In this document: piece by piece, positions 971-27,188 of the stretch
How positions within the stretch are numbered: position 1 is the stretch's first letter
How the letters are laid out: every line of letters starts with the position of its first letter
Virus record (IMG/VR): IMGVR_UViG_3300005259_000074
Coordinates: 64,001 to 128,000 of that record
Origin: a virus
Taxonomy: Duplodnaviria > Caudoviricetes
Length of the DNA: 64,000 bases
Direction: 5' to 3' (one strand)
Position numbers and translations under genes: made by a program
The notes under the pieces: generated by a model
Databases searched by the model: none
What the model saw: only the letters and a program-made list of their open reading frames with translations
Told to the model about the DNA's origin: nothing

Positions 971-1936
971 TCACAAGTTGTCGATGCTAGAGTAGATACC
1001 GATGTCGAGGATATTTCTCAAGCAGGGGTCACACAGAGCCGCTTCCATGGGCATCCTGTGGGTCTCCTTGTCTTCGAAGAACTCAGTCAAGTCTTTTGGA
1101 GCGCCGCACATGAAGCATGTTGGAATCGGATCTACTATGATCCTCTCTTTCATCTCTTGACACAGAGTCTGCAAACTTTTCTCATACAAGCGTTCAAAAG
1201 TAGACACGCCACTGAACATCTTGTGACCGATGTCTTTCTTCTTAAAAACGCACATTTTACAGTACTTATCGTCTCCACCGCATATTCTGTCTATCAAATG
1301 GCACGGAGTCGTCTGCTGTATCACGCTGGAACTGAGAGCTATGTGATCCTTCTTCGTCTTTGCAAATGGCTGCAACACTGGAAAACACGCTTCGCAGAAC
1401 CTCTGATAGCTGGCTCCGGCGAACTTGAACTCAGCTTGATCGTCCCAACACGATTTCTTTCTATGACAGTTCTCCCATTTATCATACTGAGTCCGCTCTA
1501 CTAGCCCCCTAAGCACCTTTGACATCGACACATCGGCAAATGGAATGCCCGACATGTTGAAGCTCTCTCCGTCGAATTCTATCTGGAGTTTGTCCCTTCC
1601 AGTGCGACGGACTCCTTTGACACCCCGGTCCTGGTCTGAGAAATGGTCATTCATGCTTGCGTTGCAAGCTACGACATCACCGACTTTCGCTATGCGCGTG
1701 TTACAACCACTGGAAGGAAAGCAGAAGTTGTTCGCCGACAACGACAGTGCGATATTGGCGTCTATGGGAAGATCGAACATGTCGTTTATCGCGTCTAAGA
1801 ACTGTAGTTCTTCGTCAGATATGGGATTACGAGACAAGATGAGCTCTGCAGCTAAAGCTGGCATGCTCCTACTGCCCAAGTCTACTACGAATGACGTCGT
1901 AGAGCTGTTGCTGACGAATCCTCTCCTCGTCTTCAT
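971..1936 (-). CDS. NSSSSS-leader family protein with Cys-rich C-terminal region
   Basis: start moved to ATG 1936 (ATGA overlap, GGAGGAG SD); MKTRRGFVSNSSTTSFVV; CxxC pairs; ends IDNL. Confidence 0.85.
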   Translation of the reverse strand: MKTRRGFVSNSSTTSFVVDLGSRSMPALAAELILSRNPISDEELQFLDAINDMFDLPIDANIALSLSANNFCFPSSGCNTRIAKVGDVVACNASMNDHFSDQDRGVKGVRRTGRDKLQIEFDGESFNMSGIPFADVSMSKVLRGLVERTQYDKWENCHRKKSCWDDQAEFKFAGASYQRFCEACFPVLQPFAKTKKDHIALSSSVIQQTTPCHLIDRICGGDDKYCKMCVFKKKDIGHKMFSGVSTFERLYEKSLQTLCQEMKERIIVDPIPTCFMCGAPKDLTEFFEDKETHRMPMEAALCDPCLRNILDIGIYSSIDNL

Positions 1937-2145
1937 ATCTCCTCCAGGTTCTGAGTCAGTATCGCATCGTAGTTGAGACATTTCTGATCTAACGAAAAAT
2001 CGTCATCTGTTATCTGTCCTGTCTTAAAATTTGAGGAAAAGATGCAAGCGTACATGACGTTCTTCGGGCATTGCTGTGGGCATGGCATCGACATTATATC
2101 GTGATAACAACGATATTCTCCACTGTCGTCTTTCCTGCAGTGCAT
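1933..2145 (-). CDS. Cys-rich miniprotein, C-tail family
   Basis: ends NLEEI. Confidence 0.85.
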   Translation of the reverse strand: MHCRKDDSGEYRCYHDIMSMPCPQQCPKNVMYACIFSSNFKTGQITDDDFSLDQKCLNYDAILTQNLEEI

Positions 2146-2146
2146 T

Positions 2147-2395
2147 CTATATCCCCTCCATCTTCATATCGGCCAACCTATCTGCGACAGCTTCGGGACA
2201 CCTGCCCCCGTGGAACTCAGCTCGGATGTCTTCGTACATACAGGTACCTACCAGAGCCGCTGATTCTTTGAAGTTCGCGCACTTTCGCTGGTAGTCGCGG
2301 CGATCTAAGCAATAATACCCTCCGCAGATCCACTTAGACCAAGCAAACTTCGACCTGGTGTTCTCCCTGCATAAGTTAGATTTGACACCGCTCAT
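2147..2395 (-). CDS. Cys-rich miniprotein, C-tail family
   Basis: NLC.., ends KMEGI. Confidence 0.85.
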   Translation of the reverse strand: MSGVKSNLCRENTRSKFAWSKWICGGYYCLDRRDYQRKCANFKESAALVGTCMYEDIRAEFHGGRCPEAVADRLADMKMEGI

Positions 2396-2649
2396 ATGTT
2401 GTCCAGTTTCATCTCTATTTCCGCGTCTTCAAGGGCCGCTTTGCACACGCACACTCTCATGCCGAACCACTCGCGAGGTCCTTGATGGGAGAATCTGCAC
2501 TTATCGTATTCTCCCTCGCGCGGTTTGAAGAACTCACACGCTGACACATCGATATACTCACCAGATCCTCTCATTTGGGTCCCAGGACTCTGGCACATCC
2601 CGTACATTCCCTCGTCATTCCGGTGTATCCAGCATAAGTTAGTCATCAT
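2392..2649 (-). CDS. Cys-rich miniprotein, C-tail family
   Basis: NLC..CEFF..CVC, ends KLDNI. Confidence 0.85.
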   Translation of the reverse strand: MMTNLCWIHRNDEGMYGMCQSPGTQMRGSGEYIDVSACEFFKPREGEYDKCRFSHQGPREWFGMRVCVCKAALEDAEIEMKLDNI

Positions 2650-2903
2650 ATCTCCTCCAACTTCGATGCGATATAACTGTCGGCCCTCGCTTCTTTAGAA
2701 TTGCAGTATGCGTACCCTCTCATGTAGTACGCGCAGATATTCTCCTTACCTTCTAGAGATGCGTAGACACACGCTTGGAACTCCCTGACTGGACCTCTTA
2801 GGTGCGAATCCGCGGCATAGTATTCCTTTTTGTACTTAGCAGTGCAGGAATAAGAGTCCGCACCATATCTATCATCATTAAACTTACAGTAGTTAGACTT
2901 CAT
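2646..2903 (-). CDS. Cys-rich miniprotein, C-tail family
   Basis: start moved to MKSNYCK (ATGA overlap); ends KLEEI. Confidence 0.85.
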   Translation of the reverse strand: MKSNYCKFNDDRYGADSYSCTAKYKKEYYAADSHLRGPVREFQACVYASLEGKENICAYYMRGYAYCNSKEARADSYIASKLEEI

Positions 2904-3154
2904 ACATCCTCCAACTTCGAGATGCTCACTCTGTCCCAGCGCGCTGCCTGACACTCGCAGCGGCAGCTGACAGGATCGTAGTACGTGCACACCCCATAGA
3001 GCTGGGAATCAGTTTCGTAGAAGTCACACGGTTTCTGGATCTTGACTATAGCGCGTTCCATGACGAGGTGGTTCCTGTCTTTCTCGTCGACAAACACGCA
3101 GTAGCACTCGTCTTCTGACTTCACGTACGTGCAAGCGTTGTACTCTTCTCTCAC
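2900..3154 (-). CDS. Cys-rich miniprotein, C-tail family
   Basis: CDFY..C..CRCEC, ends KLEDV. Confidence 0.85.
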   Translation of the reverse strand: MREEYNACTYVKSEDECYCVFVDEKDRNHLVMERAIVKIQKPCDFYETDSQLYGVCTYYDPVSCRCECQAARWDRVSISKLEDV

Positions 3155-3402
3155 AGCTCCTCCATCTTCATTATCACCGCTGCATCAGGATGTTGGCACC
3201 TGCTGTAGTACTCCCGGGAGTTCACATCTGTCTTGTCGATGTGTTCGTGGTGCCCTCTGCGGTAGCGGCATAGCTTGTACTCCTGGTCGGCGAACATTAC
3301 ACCGCTGGATAGGCGGCTGATCTCGAACATCTCGCACTCAGCTTGTGGCCAACCGTGGTCTTTGCACACTGCGATCTCGTCGATGAACTTACACAAGTTC
3401 AT
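3151..3402 (-). CDS. Cys-rich miniprotein, C-tail family
   Basis: start moved to MNLCK; ends KMEEL. Confidence 0.85.
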   Translation of the reverse strand: MNLCKFIDEIAVCKDHGWPQAECEMFEISRLSSGVMFADQEYKLCRYRRGHHEHIDKTDVNSREYYSRCQHPDAAVIMKMEEL

Positions 3403-3611
3403 AAGTCCTCTATCTTCTCTGTTATTTTCAAGTCTTCCCAAGCTTCTACGCTGATACAAGTGGCTGGACACTTCCGATGTCGGCAGTCGAACCACTTTCC
3501 ATCCGCCCTGTCGAAGTACTTACACATGCTCATGAGTTCCCACGCAGTGCAGGTGTACTTGCGTTCGATTTCGTGTCTGGCGCAGAAGTTGACTTTGATT
3601 TCTTCGTTCAT
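3399..3611 (-). CDS. Cys-rich miniprotein, C-tail family
   Basis: start moved to MNEEIKVNFC; ends KIEDL. Confidence 0.85.
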   Translation of the reverse strand: MNEEIKVNFCARHEIERKYTCTAWELMSMCKYFDRADGKWFDCRHRKCPATCISVEAWEDLKITEKIEDL

Positions 3612-3892
3612 ATCTTCTCGATGGCTCTGGTCAGCAGTTCGTCCGTCATCGCGTCTCCGTTCAGACATATGACGTACCCGATGTCCCTCGCGTAAGAGTA
3701 GATGCAATCCTTAGAGCAGTTCTTTCCTTTCATGAATGCGCTGTATTTGCAGTATCTGTCTGGAGGCATCCCGGTGCTGTAATGGTCTTCGTATTCTTCG
3801 ACGGAGATGTTCCTACCGACACACATGAACTCATCGTCGACTGAGACGCACAAGTTGTCTCCTCTGCTGTAAGGATTTGACCTCATGTTCAT
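3608..3892 (-). CDS. Cys-rich miniprotein, C-tail family
   Basis: NLC..CKYS..C, ends AIEKI. Confidence 0.85.
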   Translation of the reverse strand: MNMRSNPYSRGDNLCVSVDDEFMCVGRNISVEEYEDHYSTGMPPDRYCKYSAFMKGKNCSKDCIYSYARDIGYVICLNGDAMTDELLTRAIEKI

Positions 3893-4104
3893 AATTCCTC
3901 TAGTTTCTCAGCAAGTAATGCATCTGTATGTGCATCTTCACAAATACATGTAAAGAAACTGTTGTACATGCACGATGAATTCCACAATCTTCGTTTGAAA
4001 TAAGTACAATCTCGCTGTTCATCAGTGTACTCACAAGAGAACCTCAAACTATACTCTCGTGGTACCATCATCAAACGAATTAACTTGCACTTGTTCTCCT
4101 TCAT
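3889..4104 (-). CDS. Cys-rich miniprotein, C-tail family
   Basis: MKENKC..CTYF..CIC, ends KLEEL. Confidence 0.88.
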   Translation of the reverse strand: MKENKCKLIRLMMVPREYSLRFSCEYTDEQRDCTYFKRRLWNSSCMYNSFFTCICEDAHTDALLAEKLEEL

Positions 4105-4310
4105 AACTCTTCTATCTTTGCGTTGACTTCAGCCTCCTCTTGAGCTGTCTTGTGATTGCAGTACTCATCGTATTCTCCGCTGGTGAATTTACACCATCTT
4201 GAAGAACTACTGTCAAAGTACTTGCACTTCCAGTTGATGTCGTCGGTGCAATAGAATCTCTCAGAAGTTTTATTGTAGTTGAGCATCTTCACACACTTGT
4301 TTTCCTTCAT
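4101..4310 (-). CDS. Cys-rich miniprotein, C-tail family
   Basis: start moved to MKENKCVK; ends KIEEL. Confidence 0.88.
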   Translation of the reverse strand: MKENKCVKMLNYNKTSERFYCTDDINWKCKYFDSSSSRWCKFTSGEYDEYCNHKTAQEEAEVNAKIEEL

Positions 4311-4519
4311 AGCCTTTCCATCACCTCCACCGCCTGTGATTCTCGCTGTGCTGAGTAGCTCCTGCAGTACTCGTTGTGCTCTCCATCCGACTCGCGGCAA
4401 CAGTGGCGGTAGTCCCTGTAGTCGGGTGCGTAGTAGTCGCAGGGTTTCCCGCGTAATCGATAGCAGTAGAAATACCACTTTCCATTTACTACGACACTGT
4501 GACATCCATTCTTCTTCAT
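4307..4519 (-). CDS. Cys-rich miniprotein, C-tail family
   Basis: CDYY..CC..C, ends VMERL. Confidence 0.85.
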   Translation of the reverse strand: MKKNGCHSVVVNGKWYFYCYRLRGKPCDYYAPDYRDYRHCCRESDGEHNEYCRSYSAQRESQAVEVMERL

Positions 4520-4737
4520 ATCTTATCTAGTCCTATGCCTATCTTAGCTTCGTCGCACTTACAGAGTCTTCCGACCCCTGTGATGAATAATTTTCCGGCG
4601 TATATGCACATCCCGCGGCACTTTAGCTTCTTGCTCCGGACGTAGTAGTCGCACTCTGTCGCCCGACCTTTCGCGCGAGTCAAGTAATTGGTGCAGTACG
4701 TCCTGCCATCAGTTTCATTCAACCGACACATGTTCAC
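4516..4737 (-). CDS. Cys-rich miniprotein, C-tail family
   Basis: MNMC..CDYY..CKC, ends GLDKI. Confidence 0.85.
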   Translation of the reverse strand: MNMCRLNETDGRTYCTNYLTRAKGRATECDYYVRSKKLKCRGMCIYAGKLFITGVGRLCKCDEAKIGIGLDKI

Positions 4738-4738
4738 G

Positions 4739-4963
4739 TCATATCTCCCACATTCGGACGTCTATCAGCGCTTCTCTGTTGGTACACCTACACGACACTC
4801 TGCTGAGGCGGTCCACCTGTTTGCTGTGGACGCACGCGTTGGGGAATTCCCCATCTTCGCTGAAGTAGCAGCACTCCTTAGGATCAATGAGCATCACCGG
4901 AGCTCCACACATCAGAGATTCATCGTTCATGTTCTTCCACAGGAGACTTCTGACGTCACGCAT
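4739..4963 (-). CDS. Cys-rich miniprotein, C-tail family
   Basis: CCYF..C..CRC, ends RMWEI (variant tail). Confidence 0.8.
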   Translation of the reverse strand: MRDVRSLLWKNMNDESLMCGAPVMLIDPKECCYFSEDGEFPNACVHSKQVDRLSRVSCRCTNREALIDVRMWEI

Positions 4964-4964
4964 G

Positions 4965-5207
4965 TCACAGCCCTCTCATCTTCAGCTCTAACAGTGCTTC
5001 ATCACTAGTGCACATGCGAAAAGGAAGAGTACTATCTATGTTCTTCCCGTACTCGCACACGTTGTCGTAGATCAAATAGTGCCTGTCCATCTCTTCATTA
5101 CAGCATCGCTCGAAGTAATCGCAGGTGGTTTGTTCAACGTTGCTACTGCTGATTATCGCGCCGCACAAGTGAGGACCGTCCTCGTTAGTTGAAAGGCAGT
5201 AGTTCAC
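4965..5207 (-). CDS. Cys-rich miniprotein, C-tail family
   Basis: MNYC..CDYF, ends KMRGL (variant tail). Confidence 0.82.
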   Translation of the reverse strand: MNYCLSTNEDGPHLCGAIISSSNVEQTTCDYFERCCNEEMDRHYLIYDNVCEYGKNIDSTLPFRMCTSDEALLELKMRGL

Positions 5208-5422
5208 AGCTCCTCCATCTGTTTGTCTAATATAGCGTCTTTACAGAAGCAGGTGTAAGTAGTGTTAGAACTTGGGGTCTCGTATCCTTCGTATGCGCAC
5301 TTGCGAGTCCCGTCTTTCCACGATAACATATTGTTGAGTTGGTAGAAATCGCATACTAACCTAGAAGATGTGATCCACCCGCAAGTCGCTTTCCCATTTT
5401 CAGATATGTGACAGTAGTTCAC
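5204..5422 (-). CDS. Cys-rich miniprotein, C-tail family
   Basis: GTG start via GTGA overlap; ends ILDKQMEEL. Confidence 0.85.
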   Translation of the reverse strand: MNYCHISENGKATCGWITSSRLVCDFYQLNNMLSWKDGTRKCAYEGYETPSSNTTYTCFCKDAILDKQMEEL

Positions 5423-7588: not shown

Positions 7589-7609
7589 ATTTCATCCTTC
7601 GTTTACTAT

Positions 7610-7637
7610 AATCTACACCACAATTGACATTTGTAAA
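7610..7637 (-). promoter_or_regulatory. Putative sigma70-type early promoter for the leftward array
   Basis: TTTCCC-TTTACA-16nt-TAGATT, same core as promoters at 18419 and 30040. Confidence 0.55.
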
Positions 7638-9942: not shown

Positions 9943-10196
9943 AAACTAACGAATGTTTATATGTTATATTCTTAAACGGAAGAGGCGGGTATTGGTGCAA
10001 TGCAGCTCTCGCGCATAGCGCCGTCAGCAAAGAAGTGACTTTCAACGGTTGGATAGAGCGAATGAACCACTGCGAGGGTTTCTCACTAGAAGAGGGAAAC
10101 ACTTTCTGCAAGTACTTCAAGGAGAAGGAGACGACGTGCACTCACCGAAGATTGAGAAAAGAAGCTCGCCTCCTTTACAAATTAGAAGAACTGTGA
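9939..10196 (+). CDS. Cys-rich miniprotein, C-tail family
   Basis: start moved to MKTNEC; ends KLEEL. Confidence 0.85.
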   Translation: MKTNECLYVIFLNGRGGYWCNAALAHSAVSKEVTFNGWIERMNHCEGFSLEEGNTFCKYFKEKETTCTHRRLRKEARLLYKLEEL

Positions 10197-10315
10197 CGAG
10201 AGAGGAAGAGATCATCGATGAATGTATGATGACTTTGCTAAAAGAAGCTTTCGCAAAGGCGATAGATGAAATTACAAGTGATATGGAAGCAGATGATAGA
10301 CTAGAAAAGTTATGA
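10193..10315 (+). CDS. 40-aa acidic peptide with family tail
   Basis: GTGA overlap; ends RLEKL. Confidence 0.6.
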   Translation: MTREEEIIDECMMTLLKEAFAKAIDEITSDMEADDRLEKL

Positions 10316-10319
10316 CGAC

Positions 10320-10598
10320 TCACTTGACAGTGATGATTGACTCTACTGAGTTCTCTTTATAGGATTTGACTACTTCGACACCCGCTGCTCTAAGAGCTTT
10401 CTCAGCACTCTGGGCCTGTTTGGTGAGCACGTATAGGTCTAGCGTGTCATCATCTTCATTGGGAAGAGGACGACGAGTGAGGTATCTCTTGATGACTTCT
10501 TCGGGTGTTCTGTTCTGCTTGTTTTCTATCAGAGCAGTCTCAGCGATGGCAGCCATGATAGACTCGACCATCTTCTTATTCACCAGATCTTGGCTCAT
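10320..10598 (-). CDS. Hypothetical late protein, possible internal head protein
   Basis: ATGA overlap with 10595..10966; I-A-E and L-I-E candidate cleavage sites. Confidence 0.7.
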   Translation of the reverse strand: MSQDLVNKKMVESIMAAIAETALIENKQNRTPEEVIKRYLTRRPLPNEDDDTLDLYVLTKQAQSAEKALRAAGVEVVKSYKENSVESIITVK

Positions 10599-10966
10599 TT
10601 CCACTTCCTAGCTATTGTTCTTCCAGCGCTATCTTTAGTCTGCAGTATCCTGTTGGCTCTAGCATCAGACGCAGATGTTCTAGCGCTCCCATAGTTGGTC
10701 TTATAATGTTCTTTCAACCACTTGATCAAGAACATCGTAGGACCGTCTTTAAAAGTAGGAAATGCTGCTTTGACTTCGTCTTCCAATTTCACTCCTCTAG
10801 ACTTGCTGTCGACAATCAACTGCACAGCGCCTCTAATGTCGTCATCAGAAGGAAGTGAAGTTGCGATCGCGCTGAACTTGTCTTTCACCGCTTTGACAGC
10901 CTCTTCTTTCGCGTGAGGCACATCCATGCCGATGATAGCCTCATACAACTCTTGAAACTTACTCAT
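10595..10966 (-). CDS. Hypothetical late protein with MSKFQELYE N-terminus
   Basis: N-terminus shared with 35441, 53516, 54382. Confidence 0.8.
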   Translation of the reverse strand: MSKFQELYEAIIGMDVPHAKEEAVKAVKDKFSAIATSLPSDDDIRGAVQLIVDSKSRGVKLEDEVKAAFPTFKDGPTMFLIKWLKEHYKTNYGSARTSASDARANRILQTKDSAGRTIARKWK

Positions 10967-11199
10967 TTTTTAGGTCCATTTTTAATTAAGATGCTTTCTA
11001 TGTGTTTGAGTAATTCAGCGCGCTCAGCTTCTTCGACGTTTGGACGGGCGTCAAAGCTCCACTTCTTCCAGAAATCAGCGAGCTGCTTCTCGATCCTGAC
11101 GAATTCCGGGTCTGTCACTGGAGTCAGCTTCTTAGGCGAGTTCTGTTGGTGAAATGAACTCTCACTCAAGAGCTTCGCATATGCTGCTTTGATCCTCAT
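10963..11199 (-). CDS. Hypothetical late protein
   Basis: coupled ORF; LLSE candidate cleavage site. Confidence 0.75.
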   Translation of the reverse strand: MRIKAAYAKLLSESSFHQQNSPKKLTPVTDPEFVRIEKQLADFWKKWSFDARPNVEEAERAELLKHIESILIKNGPKK

Positions 11200-11432
11200 T
11201 TTTTTGCTGACTCACAAGCTTTCCACCCAGCTCTAAACGCATTCTTGAACATTTGAATTTCTTCATCAGCATACGCGTCTTTGAATTTCTTCAAGTATTT
11301 TTCGAGTGCAGCTGTATCGACTGCTTCAGCAATGATTTCACCTTTGGGTTCAACTGGATCTTTGACCTCTAGCATCGCCTTGAGGACGCCTCTGTCCCCC
11401 GAGTAGTTGTTGCCTGCTATAACTGTCCTCAT
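11196..11432 (-). CDS. Hypothetical late protein
   Basis: first gene behind TAAATA at 11537; IIAE candidate cleavage site. Confidence 0.75.
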   Translation of the reverse strand: MRTVIAGNNYSGDRGVLKAMLEVKDPVEPKGEIIAEAVDTAALEKYLKKFKDAYADEEIQMFKNAFRAGWKACESAKK

Positions 11433-11536
11433 GATATCGTTTCCTTCACGTTTTTTCGTGTTTAAATTTTCCGCGAACTAAATAAGATGATCATCTTATT
11501 TCAGAATTCCACCGTGGATTTCTTCACGTTCCTGTC

Positions 11537-11569
11537 TATTTACACATTTCTCGCATCTAATGATAAATA
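11537..11569. promoter_or_regulatory. Back-to-back T4-type late promoters (TAAATA)
   Basis: TAAATA on - at 11537-11542 and on + at 11564-11569, facing divergent late genes. Confidence 0.65.
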
Positions 11570-11643
11570 ACTTCAGTACGCGAGAGGCGATTCGGACCCC
11601 TCGCTTTTCTATACACCGATCTCTAAACAAGTGAGGATCAAAA

Positions 11644-13794
11644 ATGGCATCTGTAAGCACACTTGGGGCACCCGGCGTCGCTATCAGGGAGATAGACCTC
11701 TCGCAGGTCGCTCCGGCGATACAGGGGACATACTGCCTCGTTCCGGGTTTCACCGACCAGGGTCAAGAATTAGAACCCCTGGTGATCAACACGACCGACG
11801 ACTACACCGCCACATATGGTGAGCCAACTAACGAAGCCGAACGCTACCACTACTACGCTTCGCAGTCAGTCCTCTCCAACGGCGGCACGCTGATCGTCGC
11901 GAAGCTTCCCTACAACAACGTCATCAGCAAGAACTACAAGTTCGTCGGGCTGAACGTGGACACTGGGACTGCTATCACCACTGCCGCTCCGGCGTATCTT
12001 CGTCCTTTGACAGGCTCTACCTACGGTTTCACGAAGTATGCGGCGATAACAGCGTCTTCTGCGACTAACATGGCGACCAGCGGTTACGACCAGATCGTCG
12101 CTGGTGGAGACTTCCCGACTGTCGCTTCGTCTTACGACTTCGTGGTGATCGACGACTCCAAGTCGAGGATCAGTGGTCCCGCTTCTAACGAAGGCATATT
12201 CGTAGCGATCGTAGATCCTTACGACGCGATGAACGTCCAACGTGCTCTCCCGAGTCCGTCCGACGATGACGTCATGGACTGCATAGAGGGTATCAGCTAT
12301 CCAGCTGGAATAGCTCTCAGCGCTTTCATGACTCCCCTCACAGGAGAGTACAAAGGATCTTCTCTCTCAGAAGATGTCGCGAGACAGTTCCCAACTATCG
12401 TTTACGAGACAGGCGGCAACAAGCTCAATCCAGAGTACAGCCAGTACCTCGGACTCGTAGTCTGCAGGATATTCACCGACTCCAACTCTCAAGGCTTGCT
12501 CAATGCTAGCATCTTGGAGGCGTTCGTCGGCAGCATTCACAAAGGCAAGAGGGACTCTATCACCGGTCAGTCTGTCTACTTAGGCGACTTGGTCAACGCT
12601 GGCTCTAAGTACATCAAGTTCTACAGGAACGAGACGCTCGCATCTCTCTTCCCAGTGGACTCAGACACAACTGTGATAGATAAGTCTAGCTCAACTTATC
12701 CGCTCCTCGGGTTCACCGACGCAGAGAGTGTGAAGCTCGTCCAGGGCACACAGGTCGTGACTAACCTCAACCTCGCTTTCGCCAAGATCAGCAACCTCGA
12801 CGAGATGCAGGTCGACGTAGTAGTCGACGCCGGCGTGTCTACTATCGCTCAGTTCTGCGACGACACGACTTCCGGCTCGCTGTTCGACCCGGTGCTGGAC
12901 GCAGACTCCGGCGACGTCCCTCCGATCACCTCTTCTACGGCGATCGCGACTTGGTGGAGTGTCGTGACTGCGATGGAGCAGTTCTGCAGCAAGACCCGCA
13001 AGGACTGCATGGCGATCGTAGACGTCCCGAGGAACTTAGTCCTCCAGGGGAACTCGAAGCTCATCAGGAAGACTGCGCCTAACAACACGTTCGGCAACAC
13101 CATCGCACCGTGTCTGAGGTTCGTCACGGGTCTGAACAGCTCGTACGCAGCGATGTACTCCGACTGGTTCTACGCACTCGACACCTACTCCGGCACGCAG
13201 TTCTGGATGCCCCAGACTTGCAAGGTCGGTGGAGTGTACTGCTTCAACGACTCGGTCGGGAACATCTGGGACGCGCCAGCAGGTCTCAACCGCGGCGTCG
13301 TATCGGGAGTCGTGGACCTGGCTTTCAACCCAGGACAGAATACCGACGACGTGCAGCTCTACAGCAAGAGCATCAACTACGCAAGGAAGTACCAGCTAGA
13401 TGGGTTCATCGTAGAGGGCCAGAAGACAACGCAGGCAAAGAACAGCGCATTCGACAGGGTCAACGTGCGCAGGCTCTTCCTCAGGTTGGAGAGGCTCACG
13501 AGAGCTGTCGCCCGTTATTTCGTATATGAACCCAATAACTTGTTCACTCGCCGTCGGTTGGTAGACACACTCAAGCCAACGTTCAACGCGTTTAAGGCTG
13601 CTGGCGGTCTGTACGACTACCAAATCCTGTGTTCTGAAAAAAATAACACGGCAGAAGTTATTGACCGTAACGAGATGAAAGTGGCAGTTCTCCTCAAGCC
13701 AGTTCGCACCGCGGAAATGATTGAGGTAGATTTTGTAGCAACACGCACGGACGCTAACTTCGAGGAGATCATCCAGCAGGTGACAGCCGTCTGA
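11644..13794 (+). CDS. Tail sheath protein (T4 gp18-like)
   Basis: PGVAIREIDLS N-terminus, WDAPAGLNRG, FDRVNVRRLFL, KPVRTAEMI..FVATRT. Confidence 0.96.
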   Translation: MASVSTLGAPGVAIREIDLSQVAPAIQGTYCLVPGFTDQGQELEPLVINTTDDYTATYGEPTNEAERYHYYASQSVLSNGGTLIVAKLPYNNVISKNYKFVGLNVDTGTAITTAAPAYLRPLTGSTYGFTKYAAITASSATNMATSGYDQIVAGGDFPTVASSYDFVVIDDSKSRISGPASNEGIFVAIVDPYDAMNVQRALPSPSDDDVMDCIEGISYPAGIALSAFMTPLTGEYKGSSLSEDVARQFPTIVYETGGNKLNPEYSQYLGLVVCRIFTDSNSQGLLNASILEAFVGSIHKGKRDSITGQSVYLGDLVNAGSKYIKFYRNETLASLFPVDSDTTVIDKSSSTYPLLGFTDAESVKLVQGTQVVTNLNLAFAKISNLDEMQVDVVVDAGVSTIAQFCDDTTSGSLFDPVLDADSGDVPPITSSTAIATWWSVVTAMEQFCSKTRKDCMAIVDVPRNLVLQGNSKLIRKTAPNNTFGNTIAPCLRFVTGLNSSYAAMYSDWFYALDTYSGTQFWMPQTCKVGGVYCFNDSVGNIWDAPAGLNRGVVSGVVDLAFNPGQNTDDVQLYSKSINYARKYQLDGFIVEGQKTTQAKNSAFDRVNVRRLFLRLERLTRAVARYFVYEPNNLFTRRRLVDTLKPTFNAFKAAGGLYDYQILCSEKNNTAEVIDRNEMKVAVLLKPVRTAEMIEVDFVATRTDANFEEIIQQVTAV

Positions 13795-17024: not shown

Positions 17025-17233
17025 AGTAGTTCCATCTCGATAGATAAGATAGCGTCTTTGTCGCTGCAGGCGTATACGTCCGATGAGACGCTGTCATCTG
17101 CGATGCGATGTCCCAAGCACATCAACAGCTCTTTGTCTAACTTAAAGAAAGGGCACTTATCCTCATCTTCGAAGCCGTTAGCAGTGCACTGGTAGTCCCC
17201 ATTATCAGACCTAGCTATCACGTCACTCGTCAT
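17021..17233 (-). CDS. Cys-rich miniprotein, C-tail family
   Basis: start moved to MTSDV; CPFF; ends EMELL. Confidence 0.8.
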   Translation of the reverse strand: MTSDVIARSDNGDYQCTANGFEDEDKCPFFKLDKELLMCLGHRIADDSVSSDVYACSDKDAILSIEMELL

Positions 17234-17729
17234 CTTGTATGTAGGTGAACTGCCTCCCCGGTCCAGACGATCGCATGTCAGCTTCTGCTCCTCCATCTTC
17301 GTCGCTGAACGTCATGTAGTACACGTCATTACCAATGAACTTCTTCGAGATCTCTCTCGATATGATGTTGTACCCCAGGCACATGATGAGGGCCTTCTCT
17401 TCGTCGGTGTCGTACGTGTCATCGACGTCTATGATCTTTGAGATAGTGTCATGTTCTTTGTTGATGACATCGCGCAGCAATTTATCGATGTCATTGTGTG
17501 ATCTCCTAGACAGAGTAGTTGCATTGTCGTTGTACTTGACTCTCGACACCAGCGCATGCGCGACTCCGATAGCGCTAGCCGAGACATTCGCGAGTTCTTG
17601 GTCGATCACAGGGCGCTCGTCTTCACTGCACTGGTCCAGCAGTTTATTGCGTTCTTTTGGGTCTTTCGGAATGACCACTATGAACGAGGAAGAACTGCTG
17701 TTCGAGACGAATCCATTTCGAATCTTCAT
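17223..17729 (-). CDS. NSSSSS-leader family protein
   Basis: MKIRNGFVSNSSSSSFIVV N-terminus. Confidence 0.88.
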   Translation of the reverse strand: MKIRNGFVSNSSSSSFIVVIPKDPKERNKLLDQCSEDERPVIDQELANVSASAIGVAHALVSRVKYNDNATTLSRRSHNDIDKLLRDVINKEHDTISKIIDVDDTYDTDEEKALIMCLGYNIISREISKKFIGNDVYYMTFSDEDGGAEADMRSSGPGRQFTYIQDDE

Positions 17730-19347: not shown

Positions 19348-19348
19348 C

Positions 19349-20957: not shown

Positions 20958-20969
20958 CATAGAGATACT

Positions 20970-21935: not shown

Positions 21936-21936
21936 C

Positions 21937-22920: not shown

Positions 22921-23144
22921 CTGGCTGCAAACTCATCAACAATAGCACCGTGAATTCGGACGGCTTTCCAGTGTGCGGCATAGATATGAACTCGCAGAGC
23001 CTGTCGACATGCGATCACTACACGAGGTACATGGGTTACAACGGTCGACACACGTGTTCCAATTATGATCGGAAGTACAGAGAGTGTCTCAACGAAGAAG
23101 CGATAAAGGAAGCGAAATTAGACAGACGATTGGAGAACTTGTGA
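22917..23144 (+). CDS. Cys-rich miniprotein, C-tail family
   Basis: CDHY.., ends RLENL. Confidence 0.85.
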   Translation: MTGCKLINNSTVNSDGFPVCGIDMNSQSLSTCDHYTRYMGYNGRHTCSNYDRKYRECLNEEAIKEAKLDRRLENL

Positions 23145-23205
23145 AACGACTGGAGAACGTCACTATCGCGGGCACCCGTTCACTAGTCTTTCCGCGGTAT
23201 ATGAT

Positions 23206-23388
23206 ATGTCTTCACAGGATAAAGTACTCGTGTGGCAGTACGAGTGTCGTGACAATATGATAGAGGAGAACGTTAAGTCTATGATTGACAACCGCCGTTC
23301 GTGCAAATACGTGAGGCTGCTGTCCAATAACGACGTATTCTGTATTCACGAAGAAGCAACACTACAAAGAAGACTGGAAGAACTATGA
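23206..23388 (+). CDS. Cys-containing miniprotein, C-tail family
   Basis: C..CKY..C, ends RLEEL; coupled to radical SAM gene. Confidence 0.8.
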   Translation: MSSQDKVLVWQYECRDNMIEENVKSMIDNRRSCKYVRLLSNNDVFCIHEEATLQRRLEEL

Positions 23389-24458
23389 ACACTGAGATTA
23401 TGAGGCTCTGGCACCGCGCAGTTAAAGATGGGAAGATTAAGGAGAATGAAAACTTCAAGATCTTGTTCTCACCGGAATACAACTTCGCTTTCGACAAGCG
23501 CACAGGCATGTTCGCTCGCTGGGGGAAGACTCTCGAAGAAGACCCTCAGTGGAGTCCCTACGGTCCGGAGATTGCTGACATAGAGATATCTGCAGGTGAG
23601 TGCTCGTCTCGGTGCGCGTTCTGCTACAAGGGGAACGGCGACCATTCCGGCAGAGCCAACAACATGTCTCTCGACACGTTCAAGAAGCTGTTCAGCAAGC
23701 TCCCGAAGACCGTCACACAGATCGCCTTCGGCATATGCGACGTCACCACTAACGAGGACTTCTTTTCCATCATGGAGTACTCGAAGTCGAACGGCGTCAT
23801 CCCGAACTACACATGCAACGGGCACTTCGTGACTGACGGAGTCGCCATGGCCACAGCAGCTCTCTGCGGCGCAGTGGCTGTGTCAGTCGTCGACAAGCAG
23901 CTCAGCTACGACGCCATCAAGAAGTTCACAGATGCTGGGATGAAGCAAGTGAACATACACGCCCTACTCAGCGAAGAGACCTACGACAAGTGCATGGGCA
24001 TCGTAGACGACATGGCGACTGACCCTCGCTTAGCTAAAATGAGGGCTATAGTGTTCCTCCAGTACAAGCACAAGAATCCGAAGTCTCCGTTCCACTCGAT
24101 GATAGACAAGGTGAAGTACCAGAAGTTGGTCGCGCACTGCCAGCGGAGGGGGATTAACTTCGGCTTCGACTCATGCTCCGCAAACCTCTTCGTCGAGAGC
24201 ATGGAGGGACATCCTCAGCTAGACCAGTTTAAGTCCGTCTCAGAGCCATGTGAGAGTGGAGTATTCAGTTCCTATATCAATTGGGAGGGAAAGTTCTTCC
24301 CGTGCAGCTTCTGCGAGAACGTGAAAGACTGGAAAGAAGGACTGGATGCAGTCAACTGCGAGGACTTCTTAAAAGACGTGTGGATGCATCCTCGTGTGCA
24401 GGAGTTCCGCGCTAGACTACTGGATAACAAACGCAATTGCTTGATGTACAACATATAA
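23385..24458 (+). CDS. Radical SAM protein with SPASM/twitch-like C-terminus
   Basis: CSSRCAFC (CxxxCxxC); C-terminal CESG..YINWEGKFFPCSF. Confidence 0.93.
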   Translation: MNTEIMRLWHRAVKDGKIKENENFKILFSPEYNFAFDKRTGMFARWGKTLEEDPQWSPYGPEIADIEISAGECSSRCAFCYKGNGDHSGRANNMSLDTFKKLFSKLPKTVTQIAFGICDVTTNEDFFSIMEYSKSNGVIPNYTCNGHFVTDGVAMATAALCGAVAVSVVDKQLSYDAIKKFTDAGMKQVNIHALLSEETYDKCMGIVDDMATDPRLAKMRAIVFLQYKHKNPKSPFHSMIDKVKYQKLVAHCQRRGINFGFDSCSANLFVESMEGHPQLDQFKSVSEPCESGVFSSYINWEGKFFPCSFCENVKDWKEGLDAVNCEDFLKDVWMHPRVQEFRARLLDNKRNCLMYNI

Positions 24459-24466
24459 GGAGACCT

Positions 24467-24721
24467 ATGAAAGAACAGAGTAAGACAACAGATGCTGTAA
24501 AGACTGTCACTATTCCAATGTCACTAGTCAACGACATCAACCACGCTCTCTTTGAAGCAGATATTGCGATGACTGAGTTCTGGCAAGTGCAGGAGAAGCG
24601 CTTCGCCAAAGAAGAATTCACTAAGCGAGCGGTGTTAGGCGCTCTGACGGACAAGATCCTCTTCATGAAAGCCGCTAAAGAAAAATTGGAAGAAGCTGCT
24701 ATCACACAGCGCCGAGGATGA
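24467..24721 (+). CDS. Hypothetical helical protein
   Basis: AGGAG SD; start moved to MKEQS. Confidence 0.75.
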   Translation: MKEQSKTTDAVKTVTIPMSLVNDINHALFEADIAMTEFWQVQEKRFAKEEFTKRAVLGALTDKILFMKAAKEKLEEAAITQRRG

Positions 24722-25191
24722 CGATGAAGACGTACTTCAGTGACGAACTACTCCCAACTGACTTCGACGGAAGTGTATTCCTCGCTGGACCGACTCCGCG
24801 AGACCGCGCTCTCAAGTCATGGAGGCCAATGGCAGTAGAGATGTTGACCTTCGGCGGCACCTTCAAGAAGTGTTTCATTCCAGAGAGAAAAGATTGGAAA
24901 GTTGGATTCGACTACATAGACCAAGTGGAATGGGAGCTCGAAGCGCTCGAGAAGTGCTCCGTCATATTGTTCTGGGTTCCACGAGACATTAAGACTATGC
25001 CAGCATTCACGACGAACGTTGAGTTCGGGATGTTCGTGCGAGACTCGAGGAGCGTGTACGGCCGCCCTCCCAATGCAGAGAACTGTAGATACCTCGACTA
25101 CGTGTACAAAAAGTTCAGAGGGCTCCGCCCGGCAGTTAACTTGCAGATACTCGTGTCTAGCGCTGAGAACACTATGGTGAACTCGTGTTGA
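24718..25191 (+). CDS. Nucleoside 2-deoxyribosyltransferase-like protein
   Basis: VFLAGPTPR, QVEWE, ILFWVPRDIKTMPAFTTNVEFG motifs. Confidence 0.85.
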   Translation: MTMKTYFSDELLPTDFDGSVFLAGPTPRDRALKSWRPMAVEMLTFGGTFKKCFIPERKDWKVGFDYIDQVEWELEALEKCSVILFWVPRDIKTMPAFTTNVEFGMFVRDSRSVYGRPPNAENCRYLDYVYKKFRGLRPAVNLQILVSSAENTMVNSC

Positions 25192-25625
25192 CGTCAATAA
25201 GGCTGGCTGAGGTATTGATCAACCCTCCGTATAAATTCGAGCGCCATAATTTGTACTCCGTGTGCTCTATAGAAGACACCTCAGTCAATCTGATATGGAT
25301 GTGGAAACCAGAAGACGTCGCGACGGTGCAGCGTGCGTGGTTAGAAGATGTGATATCGCTCTATGATAGCGGCGTATTCGCCGAGGAGAGACGGCAGATT
25401 TTCAGATCTTGGTTCGAAGACTCAAAGTGTAGAGTCGGTTGCATATACAGCATCTCGAATGCACTTTCTTCTAGGTACGAGAATGACCTCAAAGAGCTAG
25501 GCTCAAGGTTGTCTTGCATAGACATCGCTGGATATGAGTGGAGAGAGTACTTTTACGCTGCTGACGAGAGAGGAAGAAAATTCTTGCAAGAAGCAGAGAT
25601 CATGGCAAAACTAGAACTGTTGTGA
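25185..25625 (+). CDS. Hypothetical protein carrying the family tail
   Basis: non-family fold ending AKLELL. Confidence 0.78.
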   Translation: MLTSIRLAEVLINPPYKFERHNLYSVCSIEDTSVNLIWMWKPEDVATVQRAWLEDVISLYDSGVFAEERRQIFRSWFEDSKCRVGCIYSISNALSSRYENDLKELGSRLSCIDIAGYEWREYFYAADERGRKFLQEAEIMAKLELL

Positions 25626-25658
25626 AGTATATTATCAAGAACTTTGAGAGGACGAAAG

Positions 25659-26111
25659 ATGAAAGTTAGAGTCGGGTTCGTCAGCAACAGCAGCTCTAGC
25701 AGTTTCGTAGTGTCAGGACCCGGAGAGTTGATCCTCGAGAACACTCTCGTCGGCAAAATCTATGTTATCGGAGCTAATGGTAAGAGAGAGTTCGGCTGGG
25801 AGAGAGAACGGACTTTTGATTTTGATTCGAAGGTTAACTGGGCAGCAATGCAGGCGATGTACTCTCCAGACGACTTGCTCGAGATGAAGATGTACATGCT
25901 GGAGAACGTCATCAAAGAGCACATGGGAGCGGCCCACGTGGATATCTCGTTGCAGATCGATGATTACGACAAACCTGGGTACGGCTACATAGACCACCAG
26001 TCGACTTCATCAGAAGACGATAGTTTCTTAGAGATATTTGAGTCGGAACAACAGCTGAAGGAGTTCCTGTTCTGCCCGAAGAACTACATACAAGGTGGAA
26101 ATGACAACTGA
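25659..26111 (+). CDS. NSSSSS-leader family protein
   Basis: MKVRVGFVSNSSSSSFVV; GYIDHQS; ends GGNDN; start moved to 25659. Confidence 0.88.
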   Translation: MKVRVGFVSNSSSSSFVVSGPGELILENTLVGKIYVIGANGKREFGWERERTFDFDSKVNWAAMQAMYSPDDLLEMKMYMLENVIKEHMGAAHVDISLQIDDYDKPGYGYIDHQSTSSEDDSFLEIFESEQQLKEFLFCPKNYIQGGNDN

Positions 26112-26120
26112 GGAGACAGC

Positions 26121-26474
26121 ATGAAGTTCAGAGATGGTTTCGTCAGCAATTCGTCCAGCAGTTCTTTCGTCGTGTTCGGCGTCAAGCTGAGCGCTAGAAA
26201 GTTGGGCGAAGAAGACTACTTCATCAGCAGCATCGCAGAAGACATCGGTTGCTACGACGAAGATGGGATGGCGATACTCCTAGGAAATGATGACATCTAC
26301 TTCGGGAAGATACTCGCAGAGGGAGAAGACGACTTGACTGAGAGCGAGACATCAGCAAGAGAATTAGCTGACCTCGAAGAGAGCATCGTCGACAACCTCA
26401 AGAAAGTGCTGAAGAAAGACAAGCAGAACATGAAAATGACGGTCAAGCTCTACACGGGGCAGAGATCATGCTGA
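26121..26474 (+). CDS. NSSSSS-leader family protein
   Basis: MKFRDGFVSNSSSSSFVV; GAGGAG SD. Confidence 0.88.
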   Translation: MKFRDGFVSNSSSSSFVVFGVKLSARKLGEEDYFISSIAEDIGCYDEDGMAILLGNDDIYFGKILAEGEDDLTESETSARELADLEESIVDNLKKVLKKDKQNMKMTVKLYTGQRSC

Positions 26475-26487
26475 CGGGAGATGCAGA

Positions 26488-26859
26488 GTGAAGACTAGAG
26501 ACGGATTCATCAGCAACAGCAGCTCTTCGAGCTTCGTCGTAGTGCTTTCACCGAAGTTCAACATCGATAAGTTCATCGATGAGAACTACGAGAAGAATCC
26601 AGACACTGACGAGGAGCTCGTTTTTGCGGAAGAAGCTCTCTCGAGGTCTGAGTTGGTGGATGTCATCAAACAGATAAGAAGTGGAAAAATCATCTACGAA
26701 AATGACTGCGACTACGGCATCTACGTCAGCCTCCAAGAAAAACTGAAAGATTTCGTGATAGTTGAGAATGAAATTGGACCAGACGAGGGACACATCCTCG
26801 GCTTGAAGATGACCGAACTAGAGAGACAACTCAAAAAGATAAAGGAATACGGAGTATGA
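26488..26859 (+). CDS. NSSSSS-leader family protein
   Basis: GTG start; KTRDGFISNSSSSSFVV. Confidence 0.88.
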   Translation: MKTRDGFISNSSSSSFVVVLSPKFNIDKFIDENYEKNPDTDEELVFAEEALSRSELVDVIKQIRSGKIIYENDCDYGIYVSLQEKLKDFVIVENEIGPDEGHILGLKMTELERQLKKIKEYGV

Positions 26860-27188
26860 AGGTCAGGAATGGTTTCGTGTCGAACAGCAGCTCTTCGAGC
26901 TTCTGCATCTACGGGTTCCGCATCGACGAGCACGACTACGAGCTGCGCGGGCAGATCGAAGAGTGGATATCTAAGAACGTGGGGAACCGCGGGTGGACGA
27001 TTTCCAGTGGTCCCGGTGGAGAGGCCATCTACTGCGGCCGCGACTTCACCACTATCAAAGATGACGAGACAGGCGCTCAGTTCAAGAAGTCGGTCGCGGA
27101 CGCCGTCGAGAAGATGACTGTCGAGCTGGGACTCCCGGAAGATTGCAAGACACTTTCCTCATTCGAAGAAGGCTGGTACGACGGCTGA
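26856..27188 (+). CDS. NSSSSS-leader family protein
   Basis: MKVRNGFVSNSSSSSFCIY; ends EEGWYDG. Confidence 0.88.
   Translation: MKVRNGFVSNSSSSSFCIYGFRIDEHDYELRGQIEEWISKNVGNRGWTISSGPGGEAIYCGRDFTTIKDDETGAQFKKSVADAVEKMTVELGLPEDCKTLSSFEEGWYDG

What the first reader, a model, noticed from the sequence alone, without database searches (positions are those of the whole stretch)
971..27188. Six otherwise dissimilar proteins share the leader MKxRxGF(V/I)SNSSSSSF
Seen: 971..1936, 17223..17729, 25659..26111, 26121..26474, 26488..26859 and 26856..27188 share a near-invariant 16-18 aa N-terminus and diverge immediately after it; four are tandem. Their C-termini are short and distinctive (GGNDN, GQRSC, EEGWYDG, FSDEDGG region). 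From memory, similar NSSS-leader hypothetical proteins recur in phages and anaerobes without a known function (not verified here). Inference: the leader is a recognition or modification site or a shared assembly strand, for example in a heteromeric complex, or an autoprocessing site exposing an N-terminal Ser.
Basis: partly seen in the sequence, partly recalled or inferred. Interest (0 to 1): 0.8.

Follow-up and report, generated by a model that had tools for sequence, protein, structure and literature searches.

The report
Radical-SAM target tag on phage proteins
Nine otherwise unrelated small acidic proteins of a 262-kb T4-like phage begin with the same 16-residue serine-rich peptide, which is most likely where a radical-SAM enzyme encoded beside them docks and modifies them; the pairing recurs in thousands of phages, including culturable coliphages, and no function has been described for it.

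Summary
All six ORFs begin with MKxRxGFVSNSSSSSF (two lie on the minus strand), and three more copies lie elsewhere in the same 262-kb phage. Conservation is at the peptide level: Ser codons switch between AGY and TCN, and the tag-coding DNA is only 65% identical. Without the tag the bodies are unrelated, with a median hhalign probability of 0.3%. AlphaFold2 models of two different bodies leave residues 1-12 disordered, so the tag is not the first strand of one domain.

The key context is a radical-SAM enzyme with a twitch/SPASM-like end (window 23385-24458), 1.2 kb upstream of the four tandem genes and on the same strand. Enzyme and tag co-occur in both directions. Of 80 enzyme-seeded loci, 78 carry tags, and every phage record at least 90% complete that carries tags has the enzyme. 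No other gene is a conserved neighbour.

A complex model with controls (ipSAE 0.62, best control 0.00) lays tag residues 1-6 on an enzyme strand and places F7 among invariant barrel residues.

My best reading is a recognition-and-modification tag. The chemistry and the biological role remain unknown. I found no literature on it. This scan has noted the same tag-enzyme pairing on other phage DNA. Coliphages Lw1 and RB43 carry the enzyme (Lw1 also two tag genes), so it can be tested.

The parts
23385..24458 (+). Radical-SAM enzyme with a twitch/SPASM-like C-terminal domain (P0013, 357 aa). It is the single copy in the genome and the proposed partner of the tag.
   Evidence: Pfam Radical_SAM and SPASM hits. 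CX3CX2C at C73/C77/C80, plus four more conserved Cys at 264, 289, 307 and 352. Only one copy in the genome. Orthologues accompany tagged genes.
25659..26111 (+). Tagged protein P0001 (150 aa). Its body belongs to the '...GGNDN' subfamily.
   Evidence: it clusters with bodies from other phages.
26121..26474 (+). Tagged protein P0002 (117 aa). Its C-terminus ...TGQRSC looks, by eye, like the '...GTRxC' subfamily.
   Evidence: BLAST (tag removed, E<=1e-4) left its body a singleton.
26488..26859 (+). Tagged protein P0003 (123 aa, GTG start).
   Evidence: Its body was a singleton in the BLAST clustering, but it grouped with tagged ORFs from 15 loci in the neighbour clustering.
26856..27188 (+). Tagged protein P0004 (110 aa). 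Its body belongs to the widespread '...EEAWYDG' subfamily. This is the protein used for the monomer and complex models.
17223..17729 (-). Tagged protein P0006 (168 aa). It is a divergent member of the about-180-aa subfamily matched by phrog_7397, and it lacks that subfamily's near-invariant E-H and terminal H.
971..1936 (-). Tagged protein P0012 (321 aa, 16 Cys, several CxxC pairs in the C-terminal half). Its tag variant is ...SNSSTTSF.
   Evidence: The tag-consistent start is at 1936, not at the upstream ATG at 1981.

Best explanation
The shared 16-19 residues are a portable N-terminal tag. It is the site where the phage's single radical-SAM enzyme (twitch/SPASM-like, window 23385-24458) recognises many unrelated small acidic proteins and very probably modifies them.

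Proposed mechanism:
- Residues 1-6 (M-K-x-R-x-G) pair as an antiparallel strand with the invariant N-terminal strand of the enzyme (residues 40-47, motif G-x-F-x-R-W-G).
- F7 and the following V-S-N-S-S run enter the barrel beside invariant Q112, N141, G162/A163 and Q188.
- The 5'-deoxyadenosyl radical then abstracts a hydrogen somewhere in F7-S12.
- The product would be either an oxidised serine (formylglycine-like) or a small crosslink within the tag (a cyclophane or ether type, on F7-V8-S9 or around N10).
- Residues 13-19 (S-S-S-F plus three hydrophobic residues) are the first strand of each body. The modified peptide would therefore sit as a common cap on many different proteins.

What is shown: the tag, its peptide-level selection, the unrelated bodies, the disordered residues 1-12, the two-way gene linkage, and a passing complex model.

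What is inferred: that the tag is a substrate rather than only a docking peptide, which residue is modified, the chemistry, and the biological role. My guess for the role is early-expressed host-directed effectors, because the bodies are small and acidic, highly diversified, and lie among early-type and replication genes.
For: 1. Linkage from tag to enzyme. 33 of 64 tag-seeded loci hold a full-length orthologue (36-56% identity) within 6 kb. Of the remaining records, 16 of 29 have it elsewhere on the contig, including 7 of 7 that are at least 90% complete.
2. Linkage from enzyme to tag. 75 of 80 enzyme-seeded loci have canonical tags, and 329 of the 330 tags are co-oriented with the enzyme. 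Three of the five 'empty' loci carry variant tags, giving 78 of 80.
3. No other gene family is a conserved neighbour. The next non-tag families occur in 8 of 81 loci.
4. The tag is not part of a common fold. Profile-profile comparison of the 14 largest body families with the tag removed gave a median probability of 0.3%, and 1 of 91 pairs exceeded 50%. AF2 models of P0004 (pLDDT 79) and P0006 (pLDDT 73) have different topologies. Both leave residues 1-12 as coil with pLDDT mostly below 50 (first-10-residue mean 44 and 46), although these are the best-conserved columns of their alignments.
5. Complex model. ipSAE was 0.62 (runs 0.65, 0.62, 0.52) against a best control of 0.00. That mark was reached by 58 of 80 solved complexes and 2 of 110 mismatched pairs. 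The runs share at least 31% of contacts, and the partner pLDDT was at least 67. The confident interface is tag residues 1-9 against enzyme residues 40-47, 50-53, 63, 112, 114, 139, 141, 161-163, 165, 188, 284-285 and 287. Most of these are invariant in orthologues.
6. One suggestive co-variation. In the one lineage where all four tags have H7 instead of F7, Q112 is S. Q112 is Q in 199 of 201 orthologues and is predicted to touch residue 7.
7. Selection acts on the peptide. Tag positions K2, R4, G6, F7, S9-S12, S15 and F16 are 96-100% conserved in 546 unique proteins, although S9-S12 were partly fixed by the search pattern.
Against: No chemistry is shown and no mass data exist. The complex score is a model's own confidence. 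The job used my own alignments and riding ligands, which the calibration did not cover, and solved radical-SAM-peptide complexes may have helped it pass from memory. The co-variation is a single evolutionary event, and single H7 tags also occur in a phage whose enzyme keeps Q112. Two large tag-bearing records (88% and 79% complete) show no enzyme. In this genome five of the nine tagged genes lie 6-80 kb from the enzyme and on the other strand. The tag lacks the substrate motif of every characterised relative. G6 and S9 can be replaced in some phages, so the modified residue is not pinned down.
Confidence: 0.7

Rival explanations
1. The tag docks on the radical-SAM enzyme but is not its substrate. 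The tagged proteins would be interchangeable adaptor, regulatory or inhibitor subunits. They would bring other targets (host proteins, nucleic acids, small molecules) to the enzyme, or tune it.
For: Gene linkage and the binding model fit this reading equally well. The many different bodies could act as specificity modules. G6 and S9 are replaceable.
Against: The model puts F7 inside the barrel among invariant active-site-side residues, not merely on the surface. Strict invariance of N10-S11-S12 beyond the docking strand is hard to explain by docking alone. Known relatives of this enzyme class act on the peptide they bind (review PMC10114670).
Confidence: 0.12
2. The tag is an address label unrelated to the enzyme's chemistry. 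It would be a capsid-targeting, packaging or assembly signal, like the T4 capsid-targeting sequence of internal proteins, or a shared strand that joins the proteins into a heteromer.
For: One short N-terminal peptide on unrelated proteins in a T4-like phage is exactly the T4 internal-protein pattern (my knowledge of T4 biology). Residues 13-19 do form a strand.
Against: The tag is nearly identical across phages from 20 kb fragments to a 548-kb contig and across many host groups. It tracks the radical-SAM gene, not any structural gene. It holds no Glu for a T4-type prohead-protease site. In this window, four of the tagged genes sit with replication genes and two among small-ORF arrays of unknown timing.
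Confidence: 0.08
3. All these proteins are one very divergent domain family, and the motif is simply its best-conserved first strand or loop (for example a phosphate- or metal-binding Ser loop).
For: The motif is followed by a hydrophobic strand in every copy. phrog_7397 covers P0006 end to end.
Against: There is no profile-profile similarity among 14 body families once 19 residues are removed. Two body models have different topologies, and both leave residues 1-12 disordered. Body lengths range from 88 to 212 aa (5th-95th percentile).
Confidence: 0.05
4. The Ser run is a self-processing site (serinolysis giving an N-terminal Ser or a pyruvoyl group), or a glycosylation or phosphorylation site used by a host enzyme.
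For: Ser-Ser and Gly-Ser bonds are the cleavage sites of pyruvoyl enzymes, and N10-S11-S12 fits an N-x-S sequon (my knowledge; not tested).
Against: No conserved glycosyltransferase, kinase or protease accompanies the tag. This reading does not explain the two-way linkage to the radical-SAM gene, or the invariance of K2 and R4.
Confidence: 0.03

Closest known systems
Anaerobic sulfatase-maturating enzymes (AtsB/anSME) and their sulfatase substrates
   Same: Both are radical-SAM enzymes with a C-terminal Cys-rich auxiliary-cluster domain that act on a short linear motif of a whole protein, not a small peptide. anSME oxidises a Ser or Cys C-beta to formylglycine (review PMC10114670). The tag here is Ser-rich.
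   Different: Only four conserved extra Cys are present, enough for one auxiliary cluster rather than two. No anSME model appears among the NCBIfam hits. The tag has no C/S-x-P/A-x-R motif. One enzyme serves many unrelated proteins through an N-terminal tag. The system is essentially viral.
RiPP radical-SAM SPASM/twitch maturases (SkfB, StrB, WgkB, PqqE, MftC and others)
   Same: The logic is the same: one maturase with adjacent, co-oriented substrate genes that share a conserved recognition sequence. Binding is predicted to occur by strand addition. The nearest solved sequences are SkfB (E 2.7e-4) and BtrN (E 2e-3), and the best NCBIfam partial hit is WgkB.
   Different: The substrates are folded proteins of roughly 90-320 aa. 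The conserved part is at the extreme N-terminus and itself enters the active site. No protease, exporter or PqqD-like domain is conserved alongside. All curated model scores fall far below their cut-offs.
Triceptide synthases (three-residue cyclophane-forming radical-SAM enzymes)
   Same: These enzymes crosslink an aromatic ring to C-beta of the residue two positions on, in aromatic-X-X motifs (PMC11499958). Tag position 7 is F, rarely H or Y, followed by V8 and S/A9, and F7 is modelled inside the barrel.
   Different: The enzyme is not a member of a curated cyclophane family: among named cyclophane synthases only WgkB was listed, 33 bits against a 650-bit cut-off. The motif match is generic. 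No crosslink is shown.
T4 capsid-targeting sequence of internal proteins IPI/IPII/IPIII and Alt
   Same: It is a short shared N-terminal peptide on otherwise unrelated proteins of a T4-type phage, some of them in tandem.
   Different: The T4 sequence is lineage-specific and is removed by the prohead protease after Glu (my knowledge). This tag is near-invariant across very different phages, has no Glu, and travels with a radical-SAM gene.
PHROG phrog_7397 (unknown function)
   Same: P0006 matches it over residues 1-152 (E 1.7e-10). Four of the other five window copies match it only through the tag; P0012 has no match.
   Different: It covers one body subfamily only, and it carries no functional annotation.

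Membership tests
Radical-SAM superfamily (the enzyme P0013) | CX3CX2C motif for the SAM-binding 4Fe-4S cluster, within a Radical_SAM core | tested here: met
   C73, C77 and C80 are conserved in 199-201 of 201 orthologues. The Pfam Radical_SAM hit is 24 bits, below the 29.5-bit cut-off, for this copy. Some orthologues have a CX6CX2C spacing instead.
SPASM-domain radical-SAM enzymes | A seven-to-eight-Cys C-terminal motif that binds two auxiliary clusters | tested here: not met
   The Pfam SPASM hit just passes (22.5 bits against a 21.5-bit cut-off). However, only C264, C289, C307 and C352 are conserved. That is enough for one cluster, as in twitch domains.
Anaerobic sulfatase-maturating enzymes | Substrate motif C/S-x-P/A-x-R, and a match to the curated enzyme models | tested here: not met
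   The tag has no such motif. No anSME model appears among the NCBIfam hits at E<=0.01.
RiPP maturase systems | Substrate genes adjacent and co-oriented, sharing a conserved recognition sequence | tested here: met
   78 of 80 enzyme loci hold tags, and 329 of 330 tags are co-oriented with the enzyme.
RiPP maturase systems | A short precursor whose leader is removed, with a conserved protease and/or exporter | tested here: not met
   The bodies are predicted folded domains, 88-212 aa in the 5th-95th percentile. No other neighbour is conserved.
RiPP maturase systems | A PqqD-like recognition element on or beside the enzyme | tested here: inconclusive
   There is no Pfam hit in residues 1-60. The complex model instead uses strand 40-47.
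Triceptide (three-residue cyclophane) systems | An aromatic-X-X motif in the substrate | tested here: met
   F/H/Y7-V8-S/A9. This is a generic feature and weak on its own.
Triceptide (three-residue cyclophane) systems | The enzyme belongs to a characterised cyclophane-synthase family | tested here: not met
   WgkB, a cyclophane synthase though not a triceptide family, was the only such hit: 33 bits against a 650-bit cut-off. No XyeB, GrrM or FxsB model was listed.
Triceptide (three-residue cyclophane) systems | An aromatic-to-C-beta crosslink in the product | not testable with these tools
   This needs MS and NMR of the modified tag.
Glycyl-radical enzymes and their activases | An R-V-x-G-[FWY] fingerprint with an indispensable Gly | tested here: not met
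   The tag spacing is R-x-G-F. In one phage, G6 is A, S, K or R in five of its six tags.
T4-type capsid-targeting sequence | A prohead-protease site (hydrophobic-x-Glu) ending the shared peptide | tested here: not met
   There is no Glu at positions 1-16 in 546 unique tags, apart from rare E at position 14.
T4-type capsid-targeting sequence | The tagged proteins are present in virions | not testable with these tools
   This needs virion proteomics.

The most novel reading that the evidence does not exclude
Phages run a protein-scale version of RiPP logic. A single radical-SAM enzyme installs one unusual chemical structure (an aldehyde or a strained crosslink) on a universal N-terminal tag carried by many unrelated small acidic early proteins. 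This gives a whole set of effectors a common cap or reactive warhead, for example for stability, covalent capture of host targets, or evasion of host proteolysis.
Probability: 0.45. Interest if true: 0.9.

Novelty: new variant of a known kind. Interest (0 to 1): 0.8.

Why it matters
The tagged family is very large: 19,587 clusters at 50% identity. The enzyme has at least 3,134 orthologue clusters. Public annotation calls the tagged proteins 'hypothetical protein' and gives the enzyme only generic radical-SAM names. I found no paper on the tag.

If the reading holds, it defines a new post-translational modification system that acts on whole proteins through a 16-residue portable tag. That would be of interest for phage-host biology, because these are dozens of diversified small acidic proteins per phage. 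It would also extend radical-SAM enzymology to a twitch-type enzyme with a new substrate class. A short tag recognised by one enzyme could also serve as a protein-engineering handle.

The system is directly testable. E. coli phages Lw1 and RB43, and many Klebsiella, Enterobacter and Cronobacter phages, carry the enzyme. In Lw1, the one I examined, it is a minimal version of one enzyme and two tagged proteins.

Tried and rejected
- **No close public relative.** Megablast of the locus and tblastn of P0006 against deposited phages found nothing.
- **Word-indexed search is weak here.** With P0006 it found only two relatives, because a 16-residue match scores too low against 5.8 billion sequences. 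The exhaustive profile search was needed.
- **No known domain in the bodies.** Pfam and NCBIfam gave nothing for the nine paralogues. Pfam also gave nothing for 48 diverse tagged proteins or 70 members of the P0006 subfamily.
- **No informative fold match.** For P0004, Foldseek against PDB gave no E<=1e-3, and VIA-align gave Z<=6.3 with generic ferredoxin-like sandwiches. For P0006, VIA-align gave Z<=5.1, helical hairpins only. The Atlas returned only viral hypothetical clusters.
- **DNA-repeat or gene-conversion origin rejected.** See the codon and identity figures.
- **Cys-rich mini-ORF as alternative substrate rejected.** The ORF at 23206-23388, coupled to the enzyme gene, was raised by another first-stage note. 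ORFs upstream of the enzyme are heterogeneous across 80 loci, and often are tagged genes themselves.
- **Glycyl-radical idea rejected.** G6 is replaceable.
- **PPR matches are artefacts.** The pentatricopeptide-repeat hits to the enzyme profile in the PDB search come from many sub-threshold repeats.
- **Co-variation search for independent H7 events.** Only one lineage had all tags changed. Single H7 tags also occur with a Q112 enzyme, so the co-variation stays suggestive.
- **KamA-like radical-SAM gene.** It sits beside the third tag cluster and was considered as a second partner. It is a lysine-2,3-aminomutase-family protein. It was not among the conserved neighbour families of enzyme-seeded loci; its own linkage to tags was not tested.
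- **One unfollowed hit.** One of the 48 tagged proteins hit phrog_132 'head-tail adaptor'. It was not among the ten longest proteins rechecked and was not followed further.

Full report
**1. The observation**

26488 is a GTG start, and the last two genes overlap by 4 nt.

The window is bases 64001-128000 of a 262,470-bp viral record. The phage is T4-like: it has a gp20-type portal, a gp15-like protein, a tail sheath and a gp44-type clamp loader. A search of the whole genome found three more copies in tandem at about 168.2-169.4 kb. That makes nine in all.

Selection is on the peptide, not the DNA. At one and the same Ser position the paralogues use AGC, AGT, TCT, TCG, TCC and TCA. The first 48 nt are on average 65% identical. 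Third-codon positions agree in only 54% of codons that encode the same residue.

**2. How widespread it is**

- A back-translated pattern (RxGFVSNSS) hit 472 stretches in IMG/VR.
- In 64 fetched loci I found 274 tagged ORFs, up to 11 per 12 kb. The Gly lies exactly five residues after the start codon in 259 of the 274.
- An exhaustive profile search of 1.84 billion representatives found 19,587 clusters at E<=1e-3.
- In 546 unique proteins, K2, R4, G6, S9, N10, S11 and S12 are 100% conserved, F7 99%, V8 95%, S15 96% and F16 97%. Positions 3 and 5 are free, and positions 17-18 are hydrophobic. Part of the S9-S12 invariance comes from the search pattern.
- Pfam and NCBIfam know nothing of these proteins. 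phrog_7397 (unknown function) covers one body type.

**3. Tag or first strand of one domain?**

- With 19 residues removed, 401 unique proteins fall into 126 BLAST components. About 30 of these recur across phages.
P0002's ...TGQRSC end looks by eye like the ...GTRxC subfamily, but BLAST left its body a singleton.
- Profile-profile comparison of the 14 largest body families gave a median probability of 0.3%. Only 1 of 91 pairs exceeded 50%.
- AlphaFold2 with family alignments gave different topologies for two bodies. P0004 (pLDDT 79.4) is strand-helix-strand-strand-helix-strand. P0006 (pLDDT 72.8) is largely helical. In both models residues 1-12 are coil with pLDDT mostly below 50 (first-10-residue mean 44 and 46), although they are the best-conserved columns. 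The fold starts at residue 13.

So residues 1-12 behave as a free linear motif, and S13-F16 plus three hydrophobic residues form the first strand of each body. Neither body has a meaningful structural match. The bodies are small and acidic, with a median length of 131 aa and a median pI of 4.6.

**4. The partner**

After six calls I consulted this scan's earlier notes. Several reported the same tag next to a phage radical-SAM enzyme on other DNA. I took that as a lead and tested it here.

Window 23385-24458 (+) encodes a 357-aa radical-SAM protein. It has CX3CX2C at C73/C77/C80 and a weak SPASM hit. It lies 1.2 kb upstream of the four tandem tagged genes on the same strand, and it is the only copy in the genome.

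Across 201 orthologues, only C264, C289, C307 and C352 are conserved in addition. That is enough for one auxiliary cluster, as in a twitch domain, and not for a full SPASM domain. The nearest solved sequences are SkfB and BtrN, both weak. All curated NCBIfam scores are far below their cut-offs.

Co-occurrence holds in both directions:

- From tag to enzyme: 33 of 64 tag-seeded loci contain a full-length orthologue within 6 kb. For the rest, 16 of 29 records have it elsewhere on the contig, including all 7 that are at least 90% complete.
- From enzyme to tag: 75 of 80 enzyme-seeded loci contain canonical tags. There are 330 copies, 329 of them co-oriented with the enzyme, and none in reversed-sequence controls.
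- Three of the five apparent exceptions carry variant tags, giving 78 of 80.
- No other gene family is a conserved neighbour. A Cys-rich mini-ORF coupled to the enzyme gene in this window is not conserved elsewhere.

In 185,579 prokaryote species the enzyme turned up at 21 places, mostly in metagenome bins of many phyla. Seventeen of the 21 have tags beside it.

**5. Predicted contact**

I ran a complex model of the enzyme (with SAM and two 4Fe-4S clusters riding along) and P0004.

- The score was ipSAE 0.62 (runs 0.65, 0.62, 0.52), against 0.00 for the best of three controls.
- That mark was reached by 58 of 80 solved complexes and 2 of 110 mismatched pairs in the tool's calibration.
- The runs agree in at least 31% of contacts, and the partner pLDDT was at least 67.
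- The counts hold only roughly here, because my own alignments and ligands were used. A pass may also owe something to solved radical-SAM-peptide complexes.

The confident interface is exactly tag residues 1-9. Residues 1-6 run antiparallel to enzyme residues 47-40, the invariant G-x-F-x-R-W-G strand. F7 touches Q112, N141, residues 161-163 and Q188, which are invariant or nearly so.

One evolutionary observation fits this model. In the single lineage whose four tags all have H7 instead of F7, the enzyme has S at position 112. Position 112 is Q in 199 of 201 orthologues. It is one of only two highly conserved columns that differ in that enzyme. This is one event, and isolated H7 tags also occur in a phage that keeps Q112, so I count it as suggestive only.

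**6. Chemistry**

The chemistry is unresolved.

- Variants show that G6 can be A, S, K or R, and that S9 can be A. This argues against a glycyl radical at G6 and against S9 as the only target.
- N10-S11-S12 stay invariant.
- Position 7 is aromatic (F, H or Y).
- Two precedents fit. The first is C-beta oxidation of Ser to formylglycine, as by AtsB/anSME (review PMC10114670). The second is an aromatic-to-C-beta crosslink on an aromatic-X-X motif, as in triceptides (PMC11499958). An ether or other crosslink around N10 is also conceivable.
- The enzyme fails the membership tests for both families, so these are analogies and not assignments.

**7. Role**

The role is inferred only. Four of the six window genes sit in a replication cluster (enzyme, then a nucleoside-deoxyribosyltransferase-like gene, then an unknown gene, then four tagged genes, then the clamp loader). 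The other two lie among dense arrays of small ORFs whose expression timing I did not test. The bodies are small, acidic and highly diversified. This pattern suggests early host-directed proteins rather than virion parts. Virion packaging is not excluded.

**8. Known or new**

Text searches for the motif and for phage radical-SAM/SPASM systems found nothing relevant. One paper merely repeats an automatic label, 'peptide-modifying radical SAM enzyme', for a Klebsiella phage gene.

The enzyme is present in 172 deposited phage genomes. These include coliphages RB43 and Lw1, and many Klebsiella, Enterobacter, Cronobacter and Citrobacter T4-like phages. Lw1 has a minimal system: enzyme gp161 plus tagged gp116 and gp111, the two tagged genes flanking the 739-aa gp114. 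All three are annotated as hypothetical or only putative.

This scan has noted the same pairing before on other DNA. My scores rest on the tests run here.

**Verdict**

The system works like a radical-SAM maturase with multiple substrates but is not a member of any characterised family, so I class it as a new variant of a known kind. It is of high interest, with the chemistry and the biology still to be found.

Noticed in passing
L009:543-1643 (+), which is G000 about 166.5-167.6 kb, outside the window: A lysine-2,3-aminomutase-family (KamA-like) radical-SAM gene lies directly beside the third cluster of three tagged genes, on the opposite strand. It was not among the conserved neighbour families of enzyme-seeded loci; whether it tracks tags was not tested. 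What it does in a phage is unexplained.
   Followed up: partly
window 48297-51599 (+): The T4-type portal protein (gp20 family) is 1100 aa long. It carries an intein-splicing-domain match inside it, at residues 419-811.
   Followed up: no
window 24718-25191 (+) and 25185-25625 (+): A nucleoside 2-deoxyribosyltransferase-like ORF and a 146-aa ORF with no family match sit between the radical-SAM gene and the tagged array. Neither is conserved in this position in other phages.
   Followed up: partly
window 17223-17729 (-): P0006 has lost the near-invariant L-E-H-G motif and the terminal His pair of its body subfamily, while keeping a perfect tag. It may be a degenerate or repurposed paralogue.
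   Followed up: partly
L012:2659-3684 (contig of 547,943 bp): The enzyme orthologue of a 548-kb phage contig has one in-frame TAG. This may point to stop-codon recoding in that megaphage.
   Followed up: no
G017 (record of L046) 10018-12030, and cultured phages: In some phages the enzyme gene is split or interrupted. One record shows four in-frame stops and two pieces. Several Klebsiella and Cronobacter phage records show two CDS, or a homing endonuclease under the match (also described in PMC9960720).
   Followed up: no
alignment A2, around P0013 residues 73-80: Many orthologues have an insertion that gives CX6CX2C instead of CX3CX2C in the radical-SAM cluster motif.
   Followed up: no
alignment A5 (48 diverse tagged proteins from related loci): One tagged protein matched phrog_132 'head-tail adaptor' at E 1.1e-9. 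I did not identify which member it was. It would bear on the virion-targeting rival.
   Followed up: partly
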